DNA of 64,000 nucleotides from Octopus vulgaris. Taxonomy: Eukaryota. Of the stretch, positions 6,200 through 57,463 are shown in pieces. The first letter of the stretch is position 1; every line of letters starts with the position of its first letter. The stretch is taken from assembly GCA_951406725.2 (NCBI GenBank), contig OX597816.1, positions 69,998,001 through 70,062,000 on the forward strand, in the 5' to 3' direction. Below the pieces are notes generated by a model, which was not told where the DNA came from, made no database searches, and saw only the letters and a program-made list of their open reading frames with translations. A program made the position numbers and the translations under genes.

Positions 6200-6955
6200 A
6201 CGTGAATTAATGCAGACTTACCTTGAATTCAATATTTCGGGGTGATGACACCATTTTCAAGAAATTGACGAATGTTGCCGATTTGCGTGTGTGGAGTGGA
6301 CATGTGCGGAAGGGTGTCGCTATGTCAACCAGCTGGCTTCCTGTAACTCCCTTCTATTATTGATTTTGGGTTTCTTTTGGTGTATGAGGATAGTCTCAGA
6401 GATTGTAAGATTACCCCTGTTCCGCTGTGTTGCCTTGATGTGCTCTGTGAACTCCTGAGTCTGGCATTTCCGTAGATGTTTCTTCACGGAAGTGTCTGCC
6501 TGCATGTGTTCCTTAATGCGTACGTGCAGTTTTCTTCTCGTGCTTCCGATGTAGGATGCGCCACAGATGATCTCATATACAACATAGGTCCTCTGGCACA
6601 ATTCAGTGTCATTGGTGGGACAGTTCGACAATGTGCACTGCTCAGAGTAGTGAGAGTTGTTGTACTTCGATAGAGCTTTTCTCAGGGAAGGGCCGGTGTG
6701 CACTATCTGTATGTAAAGTCCTTCCCTGCGGATTGCGTCTTGTATCGCTGCAGTAGTTCTCCCGACAAAGTAGTTCTTCCGTTAGGAAGCACGAGTCAGA
6801 CTTGCGAGTATGCTGGTTTTCCCAGGGCTTATTGACCTTGATCTTCTTGCGCCGTTGTTTAAGATGGTGGGTAACCATTCAGGGTTAGATCTTTGGTGTA
6901 GACGGCTTTGTCGGTCACGTTGCTGCAGTTCTTGGTTATACGTGCAATCTCGTTT
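6200..6955 (-). mobile_element. Penelope-like element 3' fragment (RT thumb, GIY-YIG endonuclease, 3' tail)
   Basis: LTLNGYP thumb motif; ORF 6320-6703 contains VVYEIICGASYIGSTRRKLHVRIKEH..ISETILIHQKKPKIN. Confidence 0.85.
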
Positions 6956-8489: not shown

Positions 8490-10750
8490 GATTTCCGATA
8501 ACTCCGAATATAAAATATAAACCGTAAATACTCTTTAAATATATATATAAAGGATATATAAAAGAATATATAAAAGAATATATTTTTAAAAATTGTAAGG
8601 AATATAAAATATGGAAATGCATATCAAATACAAAAATAAAATAATGAATATAAAAATTTAAGTAAAGATGCAGAAAAATATTAAAAAATATAAAATTAAT
8701 ATAAATGATGCATAAAAAATTTAACGTTATAAATATATAGAAAAAAATTATAACATGATCATTATTATTAATAAAGAAATACAAAACAATATAAAAATAA
8801 TATTTAAAATATATAAGAAATTTTTTAACAAGATCTTTATTTTGAATAAAGAGATAGAGACAAAAATACATATACCAGACTTTAATGTAAATAAAGCTAA
8901 AAGTGAAAAATGTTTTACAAATATTTGTAAAGAATACAATTAAAATACATAAAAATATAAAAGTAATAATACATCTGAGATAGATATATTTTGCACTTAA
9001 GGGAGGTGCGAAATATAAAACCAGTAGGAGTAAAGATAAAAACATTTTTTATCACCATACATGAAAGTAATTGATTTAGGAAATGGGTAGATACATATTG
9101 TAATACTTACTAAGGTGTAAATTTTCTGGGTTATAACATTTTAAATTATTAAGTAATTATTTTCTAGTTTAAGCCATAGAATAATTATTTTTAACTCAAA
9201 GCTTCTATTAGGTCAAATCACGAGAGTGCTATAAGTATGATCTGCTGAAAGAATACCAGATCTAGTTAATCATGTAAGTATCATTAAGGGTATACTGCAA
9301 TGTGAATGATGAGGTGTTAAAAAGAATATTTTAAAAATCTGGTATGTAAAGAGTGTCAAACAATTGTCAAAATTTATGATGGGTTACAATGGTTTCAACA
9401 AGTAATAAACTATGAAGTGGAAGAGATAAAATTAGGAAGAAAAATAATGTAATTAAGAATTAATAATAGATTAATGAAGTTGTACAAATTCTATTGCTAC
9501 TGTCCCCTTAGAATTAGCACTACTTCATCATTGATTTATTATTAATTCTTAATTTGCTTTTTTTTCCTTTTCCTAATTTTATCTATCCTTTATAGTTGAA
9601 CCTATCGTAAATTTCGACAATTTTTTGACACACTGTAAATACCGTATTTTCAAATATTTTTTTTAACATATCAGCATACACATTGCCGAATACCTTTAAT
9701 AATACTTATATGAGCAACTAGGTATAGTATTCCTTTAGTGCATCATACTTATAGTAACCTCTCGTGATTTGACCTAATATAATCTTTGAGTTGCAATGAT
9801 GATCCTATGACTTAAAGTAGGAAATAATTATTTATAATTTAAAGTGTTACAACCCAGAATATTTACATCCAAGTATTACAATATATGTCTAACCATTTCC
9901 TAAATCAATTACTTTCACATATGTTGATAAAAAATGATTTTCATCTCTACTAGTGGTTTTTATATTTAGCACTTCCCGTAAGTTCAAAATATATCCATCT
10001 TAGATGAATTATTACTTTTTATCTTTATGTATTTTTATTGTATACCTTACAAACATTTCTAAATTCTTTTTCACTTTTAGCTTTATTTATATTAAATTCG
10101 GGTTGATTTATTTTTATCTCTATCTCTTTATCTCTCTATATATAAACGGCAAAATATCTGTGTGTGTGTCCTTTATACAAATCCACAATGTTTCAGTTAG
10201 AGGGCTCGCACTTTCTATCGGCATTCAAAACTTTCCAGGGATGGTCGCGCACATCTTTACATTTCCCCAGTCACCCCACAAAGCCATTAAAAAATCAATA
10301 GAAGTGACTTTTTGTGAAATTTTCTATCCAAAACCCAATCAAAATGCCCGAAACTTGATACGCCAATTGAATGCCAGCTAGCTGTATGTGATTGGTTGGA
10401 GATTTGTACAGTACTCGTGTGTATGTGCGCACGCACGCAGCTGTATATGCATGCACTAGCTAGTTTGTTTTAAATAGTGCTAGTTTTAAATAAAGATCTT
10501 GTTAAATTTTGTCTTTACATATATACCTTTATAATTTCTTATATTTTTTGTATTCCTAATTTTTATATTAATTTATATCTATTTATAATAGAGATCTTGT
10601 TATAATTTTTCTATACATATATACCTATAAAGTATTTTTATATATCTTTCAATATTAATCTTATATATTTTTTTAATATTTTTCGTATATATTTATATTC
10701 TTTTATTTAGGTTTTATAATTTTATATATTTCATATTCTATATAAACAAT
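8490..10750. repeat. Large AT-rich inverted repeat (fold-back), arms ~1 kb, centre ~9500
   Basis: 8850-9493 aligns by eye with the reverse complement of 9508-10130; similarity continues past the 10131-10483 insertion. Confidence 0.8.
10131..10483 (+). mobile_element. Non-autonomous Helitron-like insertion
   Basis: Starts TC, ends CTAG, inserted between A and T with no TSD; the empty site is visible in the opposite arm of the inverted repeat (8830-8860). Confidence 0.75.
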
Positions 10751-14704: not shown

Positions 14705-15508
14705 TTACAGATTTATGCTTAAAATAGTGTCGTCTTTCATACTGACCATTTTTGCCACTTTTACCCACTTTTTATTAAAACATTCGTTCGACAAAGCCTT
14801 CCTCTCTATTCTCATCCTCCTTTTCAAGTGGTACTTGAAAAAGTTGACGAGAGACTGACCAGAGAGGAAGGTGTTTGTTTGCAGTCCTTTCAAACGCGTC
14901 CACCACACACATTCTTTCGCCATAGCCATCAGCGTAACGAAAACCGTTTTCCCTTCCCGTTTAAAGGAAGGTGGTGGAACTATATTAACGATAGACTCGG
15001 CCGATAGGCGAGCCTGACCTACACGTGACAACAGCTGTTCGACGAAGGACCACAGCTCTGAAATATCTGGACACTGCACGAGTGCGTGCAGAACGGTTTC
15101 GTCGCTCTGACCGCATCTCGGGCAGGTCGGTCCGGTGATAGTTTTCGAACCGTGTCTGTAGCTCTTCTCTCGAACAGGTAGTGCGTCTCGATAGCACTGC
15201 CAAGCCAGGGATTTCTGGTAGTTATCCATAGGCCCCGGCCCGAACGTCGTCCTGAACAGGCGGGTTAGGAATTCCTCGTCGACGCCCAGGTATGCCCCGA
15301 GTGTGTCGTCGGACCTCCCCTCCACTAGTCCTCTATAGAACGCTTTAGTCGTTTGTAAGTTGCACAAGTTTGACCCCGGTCGGCAGAGCTGCTGTAGAGC
15401 TTGGCGACACTCTCGGTGCCAATCGCCCAGTTTCGGTCTCTTTTTGATCCACGTTTGCAGTTCGGTCAGTGAGACGAGCTGCGGGAAGTCGCGCCTCACA
15501 AACGGCGC
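14705..15508 (-). pseudogene. ORF2 C-terminal domain, in frame after a single TGA
   Basis: Same frame as 15509-18154; contains CPRCGQSDETVLHALVQC, the L1-type C-terminal CCHC motif. Confidence 0.9.
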
Positions 15509-18154
15509 TCACACCTGTTCACCGTCGTCGATGAATTTCCAGAGATGTCGCAGTCTCAGCGCATGCCTGCGCATCATCAACCACGGCATGCCCAGTCCTC
15601 CATTCAACGGATGTTGACAGCAAATGGACTTCCTCACCATCGGAACGCCACCCTTCCACAGGAAGCGGAAGAGTATGCGTTCCAGTTTGGTGATGGTGGC
15701 GTCGGGACAAGGTACGACGGTCAGGCGGTAATCGATGACGGATGCGATGTACGCGTTCCCCACCTCCGCCCGGCCTTTTAGAGACAGATTTCTCTCGGCC
15801 CATGTTTGGCTGAGAGCGACCACTCTACTCATGATCTCGTCCCAGTTCTTATCCATTTGGAGGTCCGGACTGAACCAGACCCCGAGCAATTTAACCGGTC
15901 CGTCCGTCCAGCGTCCCACTACTGAGCCGCAGTCGGACGGCATGGGCTTGCTTCTCCAGGTGCCGAGTAGCAAACCCACTGACTTTTCCGGGTTAATCTT
16001 TGCTCCCGTCACCGTTTCGTATTTTCTTAGTGTCTCGCCTATGATCTTGATGTGTTTGTCGCTCGACACTATGACGGTGACATCGTCCGCATATGCCGAC
16101 ACGCTCGTCCCGCAACCCAGTTCCCGTGGGATGCCCCTCAGTGTCGCCAGCTTCCGCAGTAGCGGCTCGAGAGTCAATACATACAGAAGCGCCGACAGGG
16201 GACACCCCTGACGGACCGAACGCGTGATGTCAAACGGTTTCGACAGGTGACCGTTCACCCGAATCACCGATCGGATGCCGCTATACAAGGCAGCGATCCA
16301 ACCGCGGAAGACGGGACCGAAGCCAGCCGCCCTGAGGACGGCCGCCAAGTACCGATTGTCGACCCTATCGAAGGCTTTAGACTGATCCAAATTTATCAGC
16401 GCCCCACCCATGCCAGGATCCTTAACTACCCTGTCCACAATATAGCGCATCAGATGGAGGTTGTCATGTATGGTTCTGCCCGGCACGGCGCATGTTTGCG
16501 CCCTGTCGACCAGTTTACCAATGACTAGCGCCAACCTCTCGGCTATTACTTTGGCCAAAATTTTCAAATCTGTGTTGAGCAGAGTGATGGGCCTGAAATT
16601 ATCTATAAAATTCCCCTTGTTTGAGTCTTTCTTCAGCAACGTCACTGCACCTCGGCTCACGAAACCGGGGATTCTCCCGTTTTGTTGCCAGTTGCAGTAG
16701 ACTGATGCCAAGAGGTCGCCAAACAAGTCTGGCATTCGACAATACAGCTCGTAGGGTAAACCATCCAATCCAGGCGACTTATCCCTCGCGCAGCCCGCCA
16801 TCGCATCCCACACGTCAGCGGCTGTGATAGGACTTTCACAACACTCCGCTTCTCTTGCTGAGAGCCGCGGCAGGTCGGTCAGGTAGGCACTGAAATTCAT
16901 CCCTCGTTCCGACCCACCACTCGCACCAAACAGTCGAGCAAAGTGCTGTTGAAAGGCCTCACACATCCTTTCGGGTTCGAGTAAACTGCATCCCTGTTGA
17001 TCTATTAGAGACCGAATGGTTGATCTGTTGCCACGCTGCGCCTCCGCTACCCGGGCCTCTCGCGCAGCTTCAATCCCTTCGTTCCTTAAGGCACGCATTT
17101 TAGCTCTGACGACGCAACCTTCGTGCTTGGCGTTGAGGTGTTGGTCGAGGGCCATCCTCGCAGCCAGCACGTTGGTTGCGCTGCCAGTGGTAAGTGCCTC
17201 TTCTAGTTTCTTAACTAAGTCTCCCTCTACTCTATTTCGTTCTATCGCTAATTCCTTGCTAAACCTAATTGATTCCGATTTTATTGCCATTTTCAGGGCG
17301 TACCACCAGCGGTTGTTAACGACCGCTCCCGTCAGCGCCCTCTTAATTAACTCGCTAATCCGGTTCCTGTAAACCTGTCGCGCTAACAGCGACGTGTTCA
17401 GTTTCCAGTAACCGGGACCCTGCCTATGTGTTTTATCTAAGTCGAGCGTACACGTAACAAATTTGTGATCTGTGTAGCTGACTATTTTAAATTGTGGACA
17501 TCCTACACTATCCCTATCCGCTGTCCTGCATAGAATTCTATCTAGATAAGATCTCGACGATCCGACGCGGTTTGTCCAAGTCCACGTTGGCACGTTCGGA
17601 TGGTCGAGTCGGAACCTGTCAGACAAATGGAAACGTCTGAGCAGGTCTTTGAGGCTCTTACACCCCCTTCTATTCCTATCCCTTCCCACATAATCTAGAT
17701 GCGTGTCCAAGGTAGCGTTCCAATCCCCTACTGACAGTAAAGGTCTAGACGTACCCAGGAAAACCTCTAGACGTCTGAAGAAATCCGCCCGACCCGTTAA
17801 GGACGGTGCATAAACTGCCATCAGACGGAATGCACACCCATTTCTGCCATCCACGTCCAAGACAACCAGCCTACCCTCCGGGTCTAGGAATATTGCTCTT
17901 ACTTTTACCTTTAGACTCTTTCGAAAAAGCACCGCAGTACCTCCACCACCCATGTTCGGCAGACAGGGAGAAAAATAAATGTCAAATTGATTGCCAAACA
18001 TGGACTCGAGGGCCCGCGGCTTACTGAGTCTGGTTTCACTGATAGCTACTATATCCACGTCCAGTGACTTGATGTCGTTTAGAAGGTAACCTTGCTTCCA
18101 AGCCGACGCCAAGCCACGCGCATTCACACAACCTAATTTAAGCATACTTGACAT
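15509..18154 (-). CDS. LINE ORF2: apurinic-like endonuclease plus reverse transcriptase
   Basis: NARGL, ISET, GDWN, YLDR, TDH (APE); KSPGLDG, FRPITLLN, LDQSKAFDRV, VRQGCPLS, YADD (RT). Confidence 0.97.
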   Translation of the reverse strand: MSSMLKLGCVNARGLASAWKQGYLLNDIKSLDVDIVAISETRLSKPRALESMFGNQFDIYFSPCLPNMGGGGTAVLFRKSLKVKVRAIFLDPEGRLVVLDVDGRNGCAFRLMAVYAPSLTGRADFFRRLEVFLGTSRPLLSVGDWNATLDTHLDYVGRDRNRRGCKSLKDLLRRFHLSDRFRLDHPNVPTWTWTNRVGSSRSYLDRILCRTADRDSVGCPQFKIVSYTDHKFVTCTLDLDKTHRQGPGYWKLNTSLLARQVYRNRISELIKRALTGAVVNNRWWYALKMAIKSESIRFSKELAIERNRVEGDLVKKLEEALTTGSATNVLAARMALDQHLNAKHEGCVVRAKMRALRNEGIEAAREARVAEAQRGNRSTIRSLIDQQGCSLLEPERMCEAFQQHFARLFGASGGSERGMNFSAYLTDLPRLSAREAECCESPITAADVWDAMAGCARDKSPGLDGLPYELYCRMPDLFGDLLASVYCNWQQNGRIPGFVSRGAVTLLKKDSNKGNFIDNFRPITLLNTDLKILAKVIAERLALVIGKLVDRAQTCAVPGRTIHDNLHLMRYIVDRVVKDPGMGGALINLDQSKAFDRVDNRYLAAVLRAAGFGPVFRGWIAALYSGIRSVIRVNGHLSKPFDITRSVRQGCPLSALLYVLTLEPLLRKLATLRGIPRELGCGTSVSAYADDVTVIVSSDKHIKIIGETLRKYETVTGAKINPEKSVGLLLGTWRSKPMPSDCGSVVGRWTDGPVKLLGVWFSPDLQMDKNWDEIMSRVVALSQTWAERNLSLKGRAEVGNAYIASVIDYRLTVVPCPDATITKLERILFRFLWKGGVPMVRKSICCQHPLNGGLGMPWLMMRRHALRLRHLWKFIDDGEQV

Positions 18155-18210
18155 TTACGAAAATTGTGTTTTACACACTATATTAGAAGAGACAAGAGGC
18201 AAGAAGGAGG

Positions 18211-19038
18211 TCACTTACTCATTTTAAAAGTTTCATTTTTTTCTTCTTCTTCTTCTTTTGTATCGTTTTTGATGAGGTGTTTGTATAGTTTTTTCGAGAG
18301 GTATCGTTGATACCCGCCTACCGCATTCGGAAATATTGTTTTCAGTATGTGGTGTTGTGCTTGTGTTATGTGTAAAATTCTGATGTGTTTCGGTGGTGTG
18401 GTGTGCGGATGATTGTTTGTCTTAAAGTCATCTTCACAGATGACCATATTAGATTTGATGTAGTCCATTAATTCTTTATTGTCTGTGTCTATTGCAGTTA
18501 GTTGTGTATGTGGTTTTACGGGTTCATTACTTTTTTGATTGTCAAGGGGGATGTTGTCCTGAGTTAGATATCTCCCTGCTTTACTTCCTTGTTTGGTGGA
18601 TTTTTTGGATCTTTTTCTTTTACCCCCTGTGGCTATTTGCCATTCCGTCGAACTTTCGTCGTCCGACGAATCAGTATGGGGTAGAGGCAAAACATTTGCA
18701 TTACTATGTATGCTTGTATAAATTGTTGATGTTTTGTGCGGTGTTTGTGTTGTGGTGGTGTTAGGGGTAGCATTTGTCTTCTCGTCAGTGTTTTCTGTCT
18801 TTTTAATTGTCGTCCTGGGTGTGGGTGTGGGTCTATTTTTTGGTTGTGACGTCAACGGTGATTGTGTTGGTACTGTTTTTCTTGGTGATGTTGTTGGGGT
18901 TTGTTTGCTGGTTTGTTGTTTTTCGTGGCATTGTTCCATAATTGAGTGTGTTGGTGTTGGTGTTGGCAACAAAGGGATTTTATTTGTTTTCTGATTTGTT
19001 CTTTCTTGTTTTTTTCTGTACCAGATCGCACTTGGCAA
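18211..19038 (-). pseudogene. Frameshifted C-terminal continuation of ORF1 (T/P/K-rich)
   Basis: Overlaps the ORF1 end in the +1 frame at an A7 run; EWQIATGGKRKR resembles the W+basic motif of L1/Tx1 ORF1 tails. Confidence 0.7.
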
Positions 19039-20080
19039 TCAAATGTTCGGGGCTGCCACATTTGTAGCATCTAGGCTTTTTGCCTTCTGCCATAACATAT
19101 AGGCATTGCCCATTCTCCAAGTGTATCTTGTCGGGTAGGCTCTCGATAGAGGCCCCCTCAATCTGGATGGTCACTACTACTGTTTTTCCACCCCAATTGT
19201 CGTTTAGGTACACGGCTGTTTCTAAAATATTGATCTTTTTCAAGTGGTAACAGATTGCCCCTGTTATCCATTTGTTCGGCATATCGGGGGGTACATTTCT
19301 GATAGTAATTCTACTCACCCTCTGGTTTTTATAATAAGGGACCATGATGATTTCATCATTTCCCAGAGACTCAGTAGAGTGAGCTTTTGCCACTTCCTGG
19401 TTAGGGAAGCGGACCACTACTGTGTTAAACTGGGGACTCCAGTTTATATACTTTTTTTCTTTCATTATGTTTTTTAAACATTTCTCCACATCAGTTTTTG
19501 TAATCTGTTCATTTGGTTTTTTGTTTTTTCTAATAATTTTATATACAATTGTCTTATTTTCAATTTCTTGTTTTATATGTTGAGGTGTATGCAGCACTAA
19601 ATCTTGTCCACGGGTTGTAAAGAGAGCTCTTGTTTCTATGAGCTCTTCATTTGTGAAAGTTACTATTTCTTTCTTCTGGCGAAGAATGTCTGCGAAATTT
19701 ACTGATGTTGTTGATTTTTTTGTATTAACATCTTCACTATTAGATAGTTCATTTTTATTGTTGTTCTTGTTGTTGCTGTTGTTTTTGTCAATAGTTTTCG
19801 TTTCAGTTTTATTTTTATCATTTATGTTGGTCGTGGTAGTGGTGGTGGTGGTGGTGGTGGTGGTGGTAGCAGTTGTTGTCTCGTGGTTGCTGTTGTTAGT
19901 GGTGGTGGTGGCGGTGGTGACAGGGCCGTTACCGCACGTGGTTGCAGCGTTCATTTCACCGATATTTATGTTTGCATTTTCCGTGCGAACGTTCTTTTTT
20001 TTCTCTATCGTTTCCAGACTAGGAAAATGTTGTTCCATAAAAGAACGCGACCAGCGTTCCACAATAAAATTTCTAGACAT
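18980..20080 (-). CDS. LINE ORF1 (nucleic-acid-binding, CCHC zinc knuckle)
   Basis: 366 aa; CYKCGSPEHLIAKC; RITIRNVPPDM region typical of Tx1 ORF1. Confidence 0.85.
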   Translation of the reverse strand: MSRNFIVERWSRSFMEQHFPSLETIEKKKNVRTENANINIGEMNAATTCGNGPVTTATTTTNNSNHETTTATTTTTTTTTTTTTNINDKNKTETKTIDKNNSNNKNNNKNELSNSEDVNTKKSTTSVNFADILRQKKEIVTFTNEELIETRALFTTRGQDLVLHTPQHIKQEIENKTIVYKIIRKNKKPNEQITKTDVEKCLKNIMKEKKYINWSPQFNTVVVRFPNQEVAKAHSTESLGNDEIIMVPYYKNQRVSRITIRNVPPDMPNKWITGAICYHLKKINILETAVYLNDNWGGKTVVVTIQIEGASIESLPDKIHLENGQCLYVMAEGKKPRCYKCGSPEHLIAKCDLVQKKTRKNKSENK

Positions 20081-20280
20081 TTTCTAATGTCGAGAAGAAA
20101 ATTACAGAAATGAAATGGGGTCGAAACTGCCCCTAGGGGCGAATTCCTCCCTTGGAAAAGCACTCAAACGAAAGTTGGTTGCCTTACACACCTTATTTGC
20201 AGAAATGTACAAAAAAATTGGGCTATAAATAGTCAAAATAGACAATTACCTTCGGAGCTGAACTGATATCACATCCGTCA

Positions 20281-28159: not shown

Positions 28160-28502
28160 TTATAAGGGTGTTGATTGATTACAACACAAATTTGTTAGAA
28201 ATAGTCCCGAAACGGTCTAGGAACCACTTAGATTATTACTCGACTACACAATGCTATAAGCGATGATAATAGACAGTGAGAGTTTATAAAACAATTTGGA
28301 TAGTACCATATCTATACATTTCATTGTTTGAGTTATTAAAAGCCCTTTCCGATCATCAGCGGTAACATACCGAACCATAAGCGCAAATAATGTACATGTA
28401 TTTCGCACGTATAGTGTAGTGGAGTAATAATCTAAGTTGTTCCTAGAACATTTGGGACCTATTTCTCGCAGACTGGTGTTGTAATCTTTCAACACCCTTA
28501 TA
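28160..28502. repeat. Inverted repeat, ~90-bp arms
   Basis: TATAAGGGTGTTGA..CTAGGAAC..TTAGATTATTAC versus its reverse complement at 28410-28502. Confidence 0.7.
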
Positions 28503-28664: not shown

Positions 28665-29584
28665 TCGGGTCGATTAGATCGATTAAAATTACCCAAGGGG
28701 TGCCCCAGCATAGCTTCAGTCAATGACAGAAATTAGTAAAAGATATAAAGATAATAGATATGTGATGAGATTCCACACGCTTTCTGTCAACTTAATTCAC
28801 TGAGGGGATATTTGTTGACACGGAGCTATATTGGAAATCAGCTGCCCAATGCGCCGCACAATGTGACTGAACCCAAATTACGGGGTGGCAAACTGAGCTT
28901 ATCAAATCTACACCTATTCACGTTTAAGTAACAACAAATTTACAAGCTACGGAGTGGGCAGTGTCGTTCCAACATCCGACAGAACATCTCAAGGGACACA
29001 TTCCGAAATATCTTAGAACTTTGTGCCAAAATAAACATTATTTTTGTTTGTTTTTGGATCGCTAAATAGATTATTAATCCAAGGATGTTGATAGTCTGCA
29101 TTCTTAATTCGTTGCGTGAGAAGCCTTGTGGTGCCAATTACGTCTCCTTGGGTCATGAAGGAAGCGCTAACAGCATGACCCGTAAGAACTTGTACCGACT
29201 CTTACCTCTTCTTTGCACAACTCGTTGGCGTGAATAGAACAAATTCGTATCTAAGGATAATTCATGGCTGTACATATGATAAAAAACAGGACAACCTATC
29301 CTGTAACGAACATGGAATTGAACGATCTGCGTACTTCTGTTTAAATACTTATGACATTCTCCAGTAAAAACTAATAAAACATGAGGTTAAAAAATGATGA
29401 ATTGTCTTACCGAGGTAGATGTTTGCAAAAGCCATTTTTGGCAGATTAAATTGTTCACAGTAAATATTATATAACAAGATCACCTGCTTTATGTCAAGCA
29501 CTATTTACTCTGCATTTATATTTAACATATATAGATCCAATATTGGATTTCTGGTTTGCACATACACATATACAAATATGTATG

Positions 29585-29625
<41 letters not shown>

Positions 29626-29628
<3 letters not shown>

Positions 29629-30083
29629 CTAGGACGAATTCTGCCGTTGATTAGCTCCAAGAGGCCATCGCCTCTAGCTAGCTATGTGACACACAAATCT
29701 ATGTCCATTATAACCTTCGAATAGGAGACGTCAGCAGCTTCCCCTTGCTGGTTTGGCACCCACAGACTAGTTTCGTGGTAGTTGCCTCTTATCAATGTGG
29801 AGTAGCCGAACCCAGCAGGCGTCGCTGCTGACCGACTGTTCGAAGGATTATTTACCTAAATTCACTGGAATGCATCCACTGGTTTGCGAAAATAGAAATA
29901 TTATTTCTAATACTCTCTAAAGGAGACTATGGTAGCGGTACTGGATATTAATAGTTATCGCCAAGCTAATATGGCAGTCCAGAAAAAACGGCAGCATTCA
30001 TCCTATTTATCTGGACTGCCATGTTACCTTGGCGATAACTACTAATATCCAGTACCGCTGCTATAGTTTGTTTTAGAAAATAC
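29626..30083 (+). mobile_element. ~360-bp circularly permuted structured repeat with fold-back tail
   Basis: Starts mid-motif (AGGACGAATTCTGCCG), runs one unit, then inverts at ~29985; long hairpin 29711-29850. Confidence 0.7.
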
Positions 30084-30387: not shown

Positions 30388-30419
<32 letters not shown>

Positions 30420-30420
<1 letters not shown>

Positions 30421-30580
30421 TAGAAAAAAACATCTTTTATCAATTTAAAATGAACAATTGAATTACACCATCTAGAAAATTACATATAATAGAAATAATT
30501 TTAATATTTCTATTATATGTAAATTTTCTACATGTTGTAATTTAATTGGGCATTTTGAATTGATAAAATGTGTTTTTTTT
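30420..30580. repeat. Palindrome derived from the Penelope 3' repeat
   Basis: AAAATGAACAA..AATTACACCATCT shared with 44290 and 44585; mirrored around ~30500. Confidence 0.7.
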
Positions 30581-30581
30581 C

Positions 30582-30633
<52 letters not shown>

Positions 30634-43479: not shown

Positions 43480-44081
43480 AATTCATTAGCGCTTTCTCCC
43501 ATTCTAGTGGGGTTTTCAAATGAAAATAAGTTCCTTTGCTGGGGATTTTAATCATTTTATGGTTTCTCGTTGTGATGGGGAGGAATATAAGACAGTACAA
43601 GAGGGTGAGGTGGATGAGGAGAAAGTGAGAGGGAGAACATGTGTGTATGTGTGTATGTGTGTGTGTGTGCGTGTGCGTGTGTGTGTGTGTGTTTGTATCT
43701 GAGGTGATTGCTAAAGAGAAAGAGGGGAAGGGAGAGGGAAGAAGAAGGAAATAAGTTTTTTGGTCTGCTGGACAGGATATTGACTCCAAGGGGGTTCTAA
43801 GAATTTCAGTTTTGACCACTTCACAGTGTCATTGAGTGTGTGGTGGTGGGGAGGTAGGCCATAATATTGACTCCAAGGGGGTTCTAAGAATTTCAGCTTT
43901 GACCACTTCACAATGTCACTGAGTGGTGTGATGGCGGGGAGGTAAGCCATAAATTATATTTCCTTTTAACATTATGGGGATAGTCACATGTCTTTTTGTG
44001 TTTTTAAGAATTCTTATCACTTTGTATGATCGTTTTGTGGAGGTGTGTGTGTGTGTCTATGTGTGTGTGTGTGTGTGTGTC

Positions 44082-46564: not shown

Positions 46565-46795
46565 GACAACTAAATCTATCCTATATGGTTTTGGGTCTGG
46601 TTTGCAAGAGTTTTTATGTGAATACGCGTGTTGAAATACATTTTGCTGTGTTTGGGAGAGTCATATTACCTTAATATATTTAACACGGGTAGTATGAGTC
46701 TCCCAGACACAACAAAATGTATTTCAACACAAGCATTCACAAAAAAGCTCTTGCAAACCAGACACAAAGCCCTATAGGATAGATCTAGTCGTTAC
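46565..46795. repeat. Imperfect palindrome, ~105-bp arms (MITE-like or fold-back)
   Basis: TCTGGTTTGCAAGAG..GTGTTGAAATACATTTTG mirrored around ~46678. Confidence 0.8.
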
Positions 46796-50568: not shown

Positions 50569-50599
50569 GTATATATATATATATATATATATATATAGG

Positions 50600-51250
50600 T
50601 TACGAGAGGTAATGGTGTCAAGAATACCCAAAGGTGTCAGGTAATGCTGACTAAGTGCTACGGAAAGACTATAGTTAAGCTCCAAGTTTGGTGATTATGC
50701 GAATGAGGAGTCCAACGTAGGTAATATATCAGCATGGGTGTATGTGAAAATTAACAGAATGAGATAAAAATCCAAGGCTTGAAAGATTTCAGAACATTTA
50801 TAAAGGGAATGTCTTACAGCTGTTTTCGGGATATATTTTATATATCCCGTCATCGGAGACGGAGTGAGGAAATGTTTAAGCAATAGTTATTCCAGAGAAG
50901 ATATGAAATAGAGAGTGAAGTGGGGGAATGAAAACAGACGTGAGATATGCAGGGGTATTGTATCTGCAGATCCATTATTTAAGCAGAATGGTATACATAT
51001 AAGTTTCCTGTACCTTGTGTTTAAGTTTCAATAGTATCTAAATACTGTTTTGTCTAAATAATGAAACTGCAGATACAATATCCCTGCATATTGCACGTCT
51101 GTTTTCATTCCTCCACTTCACTCTCTATTTCATATCTTCTCTAGAATAAATATTGCTTAACCATCTTCTCACACCTTCTCCGATGAAGAGATATATAAAA
51201 TGTCCTAGAAACAGCTGTAAGACCTTCTCTTTGTAAATATTCTGAAATCC
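50600..51250. mobile_element. Inverted pair of hammerhead-bearing PLE-type repeats
   Basis: 50790-50972 is the reverse complement of 51067-51250; third copy at 58008-58605. Confidence 0.75.
50811..50860 (-). ncRNA. Hammerhead motif with variant CCGAUGA core
   Basis: GUCU-CCGAUGA-C-GGGAUAUAU-AAA-AUAUAUCCC-GAAA-ACAGCUGU-A-AGAC. Confidence 0.6.
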
Positions 51251-51292
51251 TTCATAGCCTTTCATCTTCATCCCATTCAGTTAATTTCATAC

Positions 51293-51361
<69 letters not shown>

Positions 51362-53024: not shown

Positions 53025-53300
53025 GGAGAGAGAAAAAGAGAGAGGGAAGAGCGTCCATGATGCGAGTTAGAGGGAACGTAACTGTAACGTTTTTCACGTG
53101 ATTAGTTGAAGGTAAAAATTGTTCAGCATTGTGTTAATATACGTTCTCGCTGGTCTTGAGAAATTTGTGTCGTGCTGTGGTTCAGCATTTTTGTCCAAAC
53201 TGTACTCTGGCTTCTCTTTACCTTCAATTAATCCCGTGAAGCGTTACAGTTACATTCCCTCTACCTCGCATCATGGACGCTCTTCTCTCCCTCTTTTGTT
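53025..53300. mobile_element. MITE-like element, ~90-bp inverted arms with ~100-bp spacer
   Basis: GAAGAGCGTCCATGATGCGAG..GTAACTGTAACG versus CGTTACAGTTAC..CTCGCATCATGGACGCTCTTC. Confidence 0.75.
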
Positions 53301-56084: not shown

Positions 56085-57343
56085 CGAGGGACGATCAATA
56101 AGTAATGCCCCTGACCCACTTGCAGTTGTGTGATCTAGCTGAAATTTTGCATGTGAAATCATTTCTATCTCTATAGATTAAGTGGCAAATTACAGCTCTG
56201 AACTAATTGTGGTTTCTGATTTACAGGTGTTTGAACTGAGTCAAGTGTGAAATGGAGCCTGTTGAGTGTCGAGCAGTGATCCGGTTTTTGTATTTGAAAG
56301 GACGCACACCACGGGAGACTTTTGATGAAATGAAAGTAACTTATGGTAATGATGCCCCATCATATGGCCTTGTAAAACGCTGGCATCGTGAATTCAAACA
56401 TGGTCGGACCTCTGTGGAAACAGCTCCCAGATTGGTCGCCCCACTTCTGCCATTGATGAGGCATCTGTCCGTCAAGTTGAGGCTGCCGTTTTGGAAGATC
56501 GACGCATAACTATTCGCCAAATAGCCCATGAGGTCAAGATTAGTACCTGGTCTGTGGAAACTATCATTCATGACCATTTGCATATGCAAAAGGTGTCTGC
56601 CAGATGGATTCCCAGGTTGCTCACGCCTTACCAGAAGCAAGAACGTGTCGAGTGCTCGAGGGTGAATTTGGAGATGTGCCAAGAAGATGAGACAAAATTT
56701 TTCAAAAGACTGATTACACAGGATGAAACCTGGGTCCATCACTATGATCCAGAGACCAATGCCCAGTCAATGCAGTGGAAGCACCGTGACTCACCTCCTC
56801 CAAAGAAGGCAAGGGTGCAGCCCTCCGCTAGCAAGGTCATGCTTACAGTCTTCTGGGACCAGGACGGAGTAGTGATGGCAAAGGGTACCAGAATTACGGG
56901 AGCCTATTATGCTTCACTTTTGAGGAAATTAAGAGAAGCTATCAAAATCAAGAGGCGGAGCAAGATCAGCAAAGGCATCCTCCTCCTGCAGGACACACCT
57001 CGCGTGTCGCCAGATCAGAAGCACAGGCGTGTGGCTATGAACTCCTCCCCCCTACTCTCCTGACCTTGCACCCTCTGATTTTCACCTCTTCCCAGCTATG
57101 AAGTTGTTTTTGAAAGGAAAGCGTTTCCCAGATGATGCAGCCTTGATTTCTGAAGTCACGTCATGGTTGGAGGACCAAGCTGGGTTCCTCTACAAAAACG
57201 GTCTCCAGAGCTGCATCAAACGATGGGAGAAATGCGTAACTCTGGGTGGTCCTATGTAGAAAAAGACTAATAACTGTGGCAAGTTTCGTTGCTCTACTAC
57301 TATGGGAAGTGGGTCAGGGGCATTACCTATTGAACGCCCCTCG
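56085..57343 (+). mobile_element. mariner (DD34D) transposon with frameshifted transposase (56252-~57258)
   Basis: TA-flanked ~37-bp TIRs; WIPRLL, TQDETWVHHYDPE, YSPDLAPSDFHLF motifs. Confidence 0.95.

Positions 57344-57404: not shown

Positions 57405-57463
<59 letters not shown>

What the first reader, a model, noticed from the sequence alone, without database searches (positions are those of the whole stretch)
29626..30083. Circularly permuted one-unit copy (~360 nt) with inverted tail
Seen: the element starts in the middle of the junction domain, passes through the later domains, restarts the junction domain at 29931, then flips; the flipped arm supplies the AGGATGAATGCTGCCGTT that matches the start. 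Its unit length is about that of the 62-64 kb array despite low sequence identity. Inference: it was copied from a circular or concatemeric RNA template, which supports a retrozyme-like life cycle.
Basis: partly seen in the sequence, partly recalled or inferred. Interest (0 to 1): 0.7.

Follow-up and report, generated by a model that had tools for sequence, protein, structure and literature searches.

The report
Octopus retrozyme inserted Penelope-style
This is an old single copy of a small jumping RNA element that carries a self-cutting hammerhead motif, and its back-to-back layout looks like the work of Penelope-type transposons; such elements are known in other animals, and a circular RNA step is plausible here but not shown.

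Summary
A 358-nt unit (29630-29987) is split inside one structured domain and joined head-to-head to a 96-nt inverted arm (29987-30082) that spans the split point. The finding did not mention a canonical type I hammerhead on the minus strand (29759-29801; U3-A8 core, palindromic helix III; descriptor written after seeing it, 0 of 3000 shuffles match; Rfam misses it). The 360-nt array at 62-64 kb is a collinear homolog with a hammerhead at the same offset. So this is a decayed solo copy of a metazoan non-LTR retrozyme, in what is probably an octopod genome. The head-to-head arms, staggered 3' ends, (TA)n flank and lack of a TSD match Penelope-like element (PLE) insertions. The long arm crosses the cleavage site intact, so the template was a circle or an uncleaved multimer. 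Which one is open: the exactly one-unit arm (about 1-2% by chance, n=1) favours a circle; mixed units in the array argue against a single circle there. Of most interest: a conserved ~97-nt domain that holds nearly all the insertion ends, a candidate PLE recognition signal.

The parts
29568..29624 (.). (TA)n microsatellite at the left outer end; likely target site
   Evidence: period 2, 28.5 copies; PLE bias for (TA)n in PMC8557442
29625..29629 (.). 5 unassigned bases between (TA)n and the element
   Evidence: do not match the expected upstream unit sequence
29630..29987 (-). Long arm: exactly one 358-nt retrozyme unit, RNA sense on the minus strand, 3' end at the (TA)n
   Evidence: linear fold z = -5.6, 0 of 100 shuffles
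29630..29648 (-). First part of the conserved multibranch domain (closing-helix 5' strand); duplicated in the short arm
   Evidence: (17 of 19)
29652..29684 (-). Hairpin with a CGATG loop motif shared with the array and the 57.8-kb copy
   Evidence: alignment and consensus fold
29714..29846 (-). Long irregular stem that carries the hammerhead at its tip (extension of helix I)
   Evidence: (I14)
29759..29801 (-). Type I hammerhead: helix I 6 bp, U3-A8 core, helix II 3 of 4 pairs with a 6-nt loop, helix III 1-2 bp with a palindromic loop; predicted cut after 29765 (GUC)
   Evidence: no Rfam hit
29893..29928 (-). Two small hairpins downstream of the domain, also present in the 57.8-kb copy
29911..29987 (-). 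Second part of the multibranch domain (GCCA-N8-TGGC hairpin, closing-helix 3' strand); left arm of the inverted repeat
29987..30082 (+). Short arm: whole domain in sense orientation (-31 to +64 from the GCCA hairpin); reads through the unit junction
57460..57557 (-). Related solo domain (-29 to +68) with (TA)n on both sides
   Evidence: E 7e-8, not in the training set; best hit on the reversed window E 1.2
57830..58007 (-). Related domain copy, 3' end at a TA run, 5' end fused to another repeat family that carries a PLE-type minimal hammerhead
62062..64000 (+). Sister retrozyme array: about 500-nt inverted arm, flip near 62560, then at least 4 units of 360 nt, each with a U4C hammerhead

Best explanation
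The locus is an old, decayed solo insertion of a non-autonomous non-LTR retrozyme, put in place by Penelope-like element (PLE) machinery. Shown in the sequence: a 358-nt unit with one type I hammerhead; two arms joined at their 5' ends with 3' ends pointing outward; a (TA)n flank on the left; no TSD; ends in or next to a conserved ~97-nt domain; the cleavage site crossed intact. Inferred: a PLE protein bound the domain, cut AT-rich DNA and primed cDNA from both DNA ends at internal RNA sites (-13 and +64). One cDNA ran a full unit, the other ran 95 nt to the base of the domain's closing helix, and the two were joined with about 1 nt of microhomology (or by fold-back). The RNA was not a released linear monomer. 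It was a religated circle or an uncleaved more-than-unit transcript; I put these at about even odds.
For: Hammerhead geometry equals the canonical metazoan type I motif (helix I 6 bp, II 4 bp, III 1-2 bp palindromic; U3-A8 occurs naturally: PMC4209133; PMC3088659); 0 of 3000 unit shuffles match; window shuffles give a mean of 0.1 hits against 6 observed. Independent support: the array has a hammerhead with a different core at offset 327 against 328. Unit size, 44% GC and 64% paired circular fold fit retrozymes (mussel 350-390 bp; PMC7229834). Head-to-head inverted copy, small overlap, staggered ends and microsatellite targets are PLE hallmarks (PMC8557442; PMC3846280). A PLE protein extends both strands and starts internally (PMC11167929). 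A GIY-YIG fragment lies at 6320-6745 (Pfam E 1e-3, below the curated cut-off).
Against: No Rfam hammerhead hit in any of 5 searches (top 150 of 349 rows seen, 28, 29, 34). The descriptor was written after I saw the motif. Helix II has an A-A mismatch, and the hammerhead fold is 2.7 kcal/mol above the minimum, so this copy may be dead. The right end has no (TA)n. The stagger between the two 3' ends (77 nt) is longer than the 30-40 nt PLE tail. No homology to an autonomous PLE was shown, and the GIY-YIG fragment found no longer relatives. Only 4 related loci were available, all in this window.
Confidence: 0.75

Rival explanations
1. Narrow form A: the template was a monomeric circular RNA; reverse transcriptase went once round and stopped at its own start.
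For: The long arm ends 0-5 nt short of one full unit; chance is about 1.7% under uniform truncation and about 1% when ends are confined to the observed zones. Retrozyme circles are abundant in coral, mussel and axolotl (PMC7229834). Array units R2-R4 are near-identical.
Against: One locus, noticed after the fact. The array's inverted arm is about 1.4 units, so the enzyme does not generally stop at one turn. The array's two innermost units share 5 variants in their first 44 nt that the other 4 units lack; one circle read round cannot give that without a template switch.
Confidence: 0.4
2. Narrow form B: the template was a linear, uncleaved more-than-unit transcript of a tandem source locus; the one-unit length is coincidence.
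For: A 1-bp helix III cleaves poorly as a monomer (6% in 1 h for the axolotl motif). Unprocessed RNA was the main substrate for a PLE in vitro. Mixed units in the array fit a heterogeneous source array.
Against: Needs a 1-2% coincidence at this locus. The array variants could also come from a template jump or from conversion between the arms.
Confidence: 0.35
3. A piece of the pseudo-LTR of an autonomous PLE, or a remnant of a tandem satellite rearranged at the DNA level, with no retrozyme life cycle of its own.
For: Retrozymes and pLTRs are related (10.64898/2026.07.22.740005). The 57.8-kb domain copy is fused to a family with a PLE-type minimal hammerhead.
Against: The motif is canonical, not the PLE minimal type (no bulged base after A9, short helix II). 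The unit closes on itself at 358 nt with no ORF of 120 aa or more, and a sister family forms a pure tandem array.
Confidence: 0.15
4. A DNA MITE or fold-back element.
For: It has an inverted repeat of 77 nt.
Against: The repeat is internal and head-to-head, not terminal; no shared flank word of 6 nt or more (2-5 nt TSDs were not tested); ends differ among related loci.
Confidence: 0.03
5. An assembly or read fold-back artefact.
For: Fold-backs are frequent in the window.
Against: The arms differ at 11 of 77 positions, mostly transitions, which a chimeric read would not give.
Confidence: 0.02

Closest known systems
Metazoan non-LTR retrozymes (Cervera and de la Pena 2020, PMC7229834; Li et al. 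2026, 10.64898/2026.07.22.740005)
   Same: Unit of about 360 nt, GC under 50%, one canonical type I hammerhead per unit, no ORF, self-paired circular fold, tandem sister family. Helix III matches the axolotl HHR_Amex1 description; the array's motif matches HHR_Amex2 (2-bp helix III, U-U at the base of helix II).
   Different: Solo, decayed copy; U3-A8 core (array: U4C); probable octopod host, which my searches did not find reported; head-to-head insertion not described in the retrozyme texts I read; a conserved domain is shared across four loci, whereas PMC7761336 says animal retrozymes show no conserved motif pointing to their helper.
EN+ Penelope-like elements (Neptune, Poseidon, Naiad) and their non-autonomous derivatives (PMC8557442, PMC3846280, PMC11167929)
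   Same: Inverted 5'-truncated copy joined head-to-head, short overlap at the junction, staggered 3' ends, (TA)n target, no clear TSD, internal start sites.
   Different: No RT-EN ORF; canonical rather than minimal hammerhead; 77-nt stagger rather than a 30-40 nt tail; no homology to a named PLE shown.
MITEs / fold-back DNA elements (own knowledge)
   Same: Short, non-coding, contains an inverted repeat.
   Different: Repeat is internal; no TSD of 6 nt or more; carries a ribozyme motif; variable ends.

Membership tests
Non-LTR retrozyme | Canonical type I hammerhead in the unit | tested here: met
   (descriptor written after seeing the motif); homologous position in the array. Rfam models did not hit. 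One mismatch in helix II.
Non-LTR retrozyme | Unit of about 150-450 bp, GC under 50%, no coding region | tested here: met
   358 nt, 44% GC, no ORF of 120 aa or more overlaps it, no tRNA in the window.
Non-LTR retrozyme | Tandem organisation (Li et al. call a locus active only with two or more units that each hold a hammerhead; solo monomers are a recognised class) | tested here: inconclusive
   This locus has one hammerhead and about 1.27 units, so it is a monomer-class copy. The head-to-tail junction is present in the short arm, and a 64%-identical sister family is tandem. Tandems of this exact family were not seen in the window.
Non-LTR retrozyme | Highly self-paired circular structure | tested here: met
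   Circular fold -112.8 kcal/mol, 64% paired; linear fold of the + strand z -5.6. The antisense circle folds as well (-116.3), so this does not give the strand.
Non-LTR retrozyme | Self-cleavage and expression as circular RNA | not testable with these tools
   Needs in vitro transcription and RNA data.
Non-LTR retrozyme | Tertiary contact between loops 1 and 2 of the hammerhead | not tested
   The figures and supplement that define it could not be read.
Penelope-like element (autonomous) | ORF with RT and GIY-YIG endonuclease | tested here: not met
   No ORF in the element.
Penelope-like element (insertion signature) | Head-to-head inverted 5'-truncated copy with 3' ends outward | tested here: met
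   strand set by the hammerhead; same polarity as the minimal-hammerhead family at 50598-51293.
Penelope-like element (insertion signature) | Microsatellite target, TSD often not visible | tested here: met
   (TA)n on the left only; no shared flank word of 6 nt or more.
Penelope-like element (insertion signature) | 30-40 nt tail at one end | tested here: inconclusive
   Ends are staggered, but by 77 nt (-13 and +64).
Penelope-like element (pLTR) | Sequence homology to the pLTR of a named PLE | not testable with these tools
   No eukaryotic repeat library or host genome was available.
MITE | Terminal inverted repeats and TSD | tested here: not met

The most novel reading that the evidence does not exclude
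The locus is a fossil of a PLE reverse transcriptase copying once round a circular retrozyme RNA, and the ~97-nt multibranch domain shared by four divergent loci is the cis signal by which PLE enzymes bind, start on and stop on retrozyme RNA. That would identify both the helper and the recognition element that animal retrozymes were thought to lack, in a cephalopod.
Probability: 0.28. Interest if true: 0.68.

Novelty: new member of a known kind. Interest (0 to 1): 0.42.

Why it matters
How animal retrozymes move is open. PLEs are the proposed helpers, on grounds of co-occurrence and pLTR homology (PMC7229834; 10.64898/2026.07.22.740005), and a circular template is a model, not a result. A retrozyme copy with the PLE head-to-head signature is direct anatomical support for the helper. 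The end positions give a cheap genome-wide test of circle against multimer, and the conserved domain is a concrete substrate for the existing in vitro PLE assay. The locus itself is an old repeat copy with no sign of a host function.

Tried and rejected
Rfam gave no ribozyme hit at gathering level, in the top 150 of 349 E-value rows shown for the window, or in local searches. An antisense CCGATGA...GAAAC look-alike in the array (62210) was dropped: it has no helix II or III and fails the descriptor. HDV-like, twister and pistol readings of the domain were considered by eye from recalled consensus features and dropped; no formal test was run. I tried to explain the exact one-unit arm by both ends being confined to the domain; the simulation gave about 1%, no higher than the uniform 1.7%, so this did not explain it. 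Simple snap-back from the right end was rejected because the long arm is longer than the short cDNA could template. L1-style twin priming fits this locus but not the array (outer end +29, inner starts near -105 to -113). The consensus fold of three sequences recovered four hairpins but not the closing helix; automatic alignments were poor (the array piece was cut too far downstream). The short arm alone does not fold better than shuffles (z -0.25). A scan of prokaryotic genomes for stray copies gave 3 matches against 2.2 expected by chance, each limited to the pattern. The GIY-YIG fragment found no longer relatives (0 of 70 candidates). Viral and metagenome contig collections and the host genome stayed unchecked.

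Full report
Setting. The window is AT-rich animal DNA full of microsatellites and repeat fragments. The best named relative of a LINE protein in it is from Argonauta hians (55% identity over 58% of the query). That points to an octopod; one hit does not fix the species.

Observation. The described anatomy is real. Two arms, 29911-29987 and 30006-30082, are 86% complementary with 18 nt between them. The first 19 nt of the element (29630-29648) match the reverse complement of 29987-30005 at 17 of 19. The short arm carries that 19-mer joined to the sequence that ends the long arm, so the unit closes on itself at 358 nt, and the long arm covers one unit to within 0-5 nt. The element starts at 29630, five bases after a (TA)n run. 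The arms differ at 11 of 77 positions, 8 of them transitions, which suggests an old insertion and excludes a read artefact. No word of 6 nt or more is shared between the flanks.

The ribozyme. On the minus strand, at the tip of a long stem, lies a type I hammerhead (29759-29801): helix I of 6 bp, a core with U3-A8 in place of C3-G8, helix II with 3 of 4 pairs, helix III of 1-2 bp with a palindromic loop, and a GUC cut triplet. I wrote the descriptor after seeing the motif, so its statistics are generous: 0 of 3000 shuffles of the unit match, and 100 block-shuffled windows give a mean of 0.1 hits, at most 1, against 6 in the real window (4 in the array, this one, and one probable chance hit at 43487-43519). 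The stronger check is independent. The array unit has a hammerhead with a different core (U4C), and when both units are cut at their predicted sites the landmarks line up: core at 328 and 327, GCCA hairpin at 148 and 145, last hairpin at 201 and 202. The geometry is that of canonical metazoan type I motifs, and U3-A8 is a natural variant (PMC4209133; PMC3088659, which also notes U4C). Against: no Rfam search found it, helix II is mismatched, and the active fold is 2.7 kcal/mol above the minimum. Activity is untested and this copy may be dead.

What it is. A 358-nt, 44% GC, non-coding unit with one type I hammerhead, a 64% paired circular fold and a tandem sister family fits the non-LTR retrozymes of PMC7229834 and 10.64898/2026.07.22.740005. 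In the latter's terms it is a monomer-class copy. Its helix III matches the axolotl motif that cleaves well only as a dimer.

How it got there. With the strand set by the hammerhead, the arms meet at their 5' ends and both 3' ends point outward. This head-to-head layout, with a short overlap, staggered ends and a microsatellite target, is the known PLE signature (PMC8557442; PMC3846280). A purified PLE protein extends both DNA strands and starts at internal RNA sites, mainly on unprocessed RNA (PMC11167929). The array has the same layout (flip near 62560, 7-nt spacer), and so does a repeat family with a PLE-type minimal hammerhead at 50598-51293. I measured 10 local fold-backs picked from the 18 inverted rows; spacers run from 2 to 158 nt, and not all need be PLEs. 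So inversion and an internal start do not by themselves point to a circle. That a PLE enzyme did the work is inference; no helper was identified, and the GIY-YIG fragment at 6320-6745 is only a weak Pfam match.

Circle or multimer. The long arm crosses the cut site (+210 from the GCCA hairpin) and the short arm crosses the unit junction, so a released linear monomer cannot have been the template. For a circle: the long arm is one unit long, with a chance of about 1.7% under uniform truncation; my attempt to explain this away failed (about 1%). It remains one locus, chosen for this feature. Against a single circle: in the array, the two innermost units share 5 variants in their first 44 nt, and differ from the rest at a sixth site, while the other 4 units agree there. 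That needs a mixed multimer, a template jump or conversion between arms. The array's inverted arm is about 1.4 units. If the 18-nt spacer was flipped later by recombination between the arms, the long cDNA was 376 nt and folded back at the unit boundary; the sequence cannot exclude this. I leave circle and uncleaved multimer at about even odds.

The shared domain. A profile built from the finding's two arms, the array and the 57.8-kb copy found a fourth locus at 57460-57558 (E 7e-8; reversed-window control E 1.2), with (TA)n on both sides. All four loci show a hairpin related to GCCA-N8-TGGC (3 of 4 with all four pairs) and a closing helix whose sequence differs among them. With search windows set after inspection, the helix beats shuffles clearly in 2 of 4 (9 and 2 of 2000) and weakly in the other two (116 and 152 of 2000); in the finding's long arm it is broken. 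The five outer ends lie at -13, +29, +64, +68 and +99, none near the cut site; two of these loci were found through the domain, so this is biased. The short arm (-31 to +64) and the solo copy (-29 to +68) share both boundaries though they belong to different families. I read the domain as a candidate binding and start signal for the helper enzyme; this is inference from four loci.

Novelty. Retrozymes, their proposed PLE link, PLE inversions and the core variants are all in print. Eight library searches listed no report of cephalopod retrozymes or of head-to-head retrozyme insertions; I saw these as listings and opened eight papers. The library lacks most subscription papers, and the supplement of PMC7229834, which lists further invertebrate examples, could not be read, nor could the preprint's. 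A review states that animal retrozymes show no conserved motif pointing to their helper (PMC7761336). What I saw of each paper: 10.64898/2026.07.22.740005, parts 1-3 of 5 and passages; PMC7229834, parts 2-4 of 6; PMC4209133 and PMC11167929, parts 1-2 of 4; PMC8557442, PMC3088659, PMC3846280 and PMC7761336, passages. MITE and twin-priming features are from my own knowledge.

Verdict. A real, decayed solo retrozyme with a PLE-type insertion signature: a new member of a known kind. Interest 0.42, mostly because it offers a direct test of how animal retrozymes move.

Noticed in passing
window 62062-64000: Young retrozyme array with a U4C hammerhead in each unit; the two innermost units share 5 variants that the other 4 lack. 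A better candidate than this locus for activity tests.
   Followed up: partly
window 57460-57557 (-): Solo copy of the conserved domain between two (TA)n runs; same two boundaries as the finding's short arm.
   Followed up: partly
window 57830-58606: Domain copy fused at its 5' end to the inverted arm of a family with a PLE-type minimal hammerhead; possibly one chimeric insertion, possibly nested insertions.
   Followed up: partly
window 50598-51293: Head-to-head insertion between TA runs with a minimal hammerhead at 51180-51219; its two 3' ends differ by about 140 nt.
   Followed up: partly
window 6320-6745 (-): Fragment of a GIY-YIG endonuclease frame with upstream cysteines, probably a broken PLE; weak Pfam match, no longer relatives found.
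   Followed up: partly
window 14705-20083 (-): Tx1/L1-like LINE with a zinc-knuckle ORF1 and an endonuclease-RT frame of 881 aa followed by a 267-aa frame.
   Followed up: partly
window 56392-57063 (+): Mariner-type transposase fragment (Pfam Transposase_1, E 5e-20).
   Followed up: no
window 61641-61824: Near-perfect 91-bp palindrome (2-nt spacer, 99%) directly after a (TA)n run; probably another young fold-back insertion.
   Followed up: no
window 28309-28359 (-), 37884 (-), 43487-43519 (-): Further hammerhead-like cores; the first lies inside a fold-back at 28161-28502, the last is probably chance.
   Followed up: no
window 8846-10131, 30419-30585, 46566-46792, 53034-53297: Other fold-back structures of unknown family, one directly downstream of the finding.
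   Followed up: no
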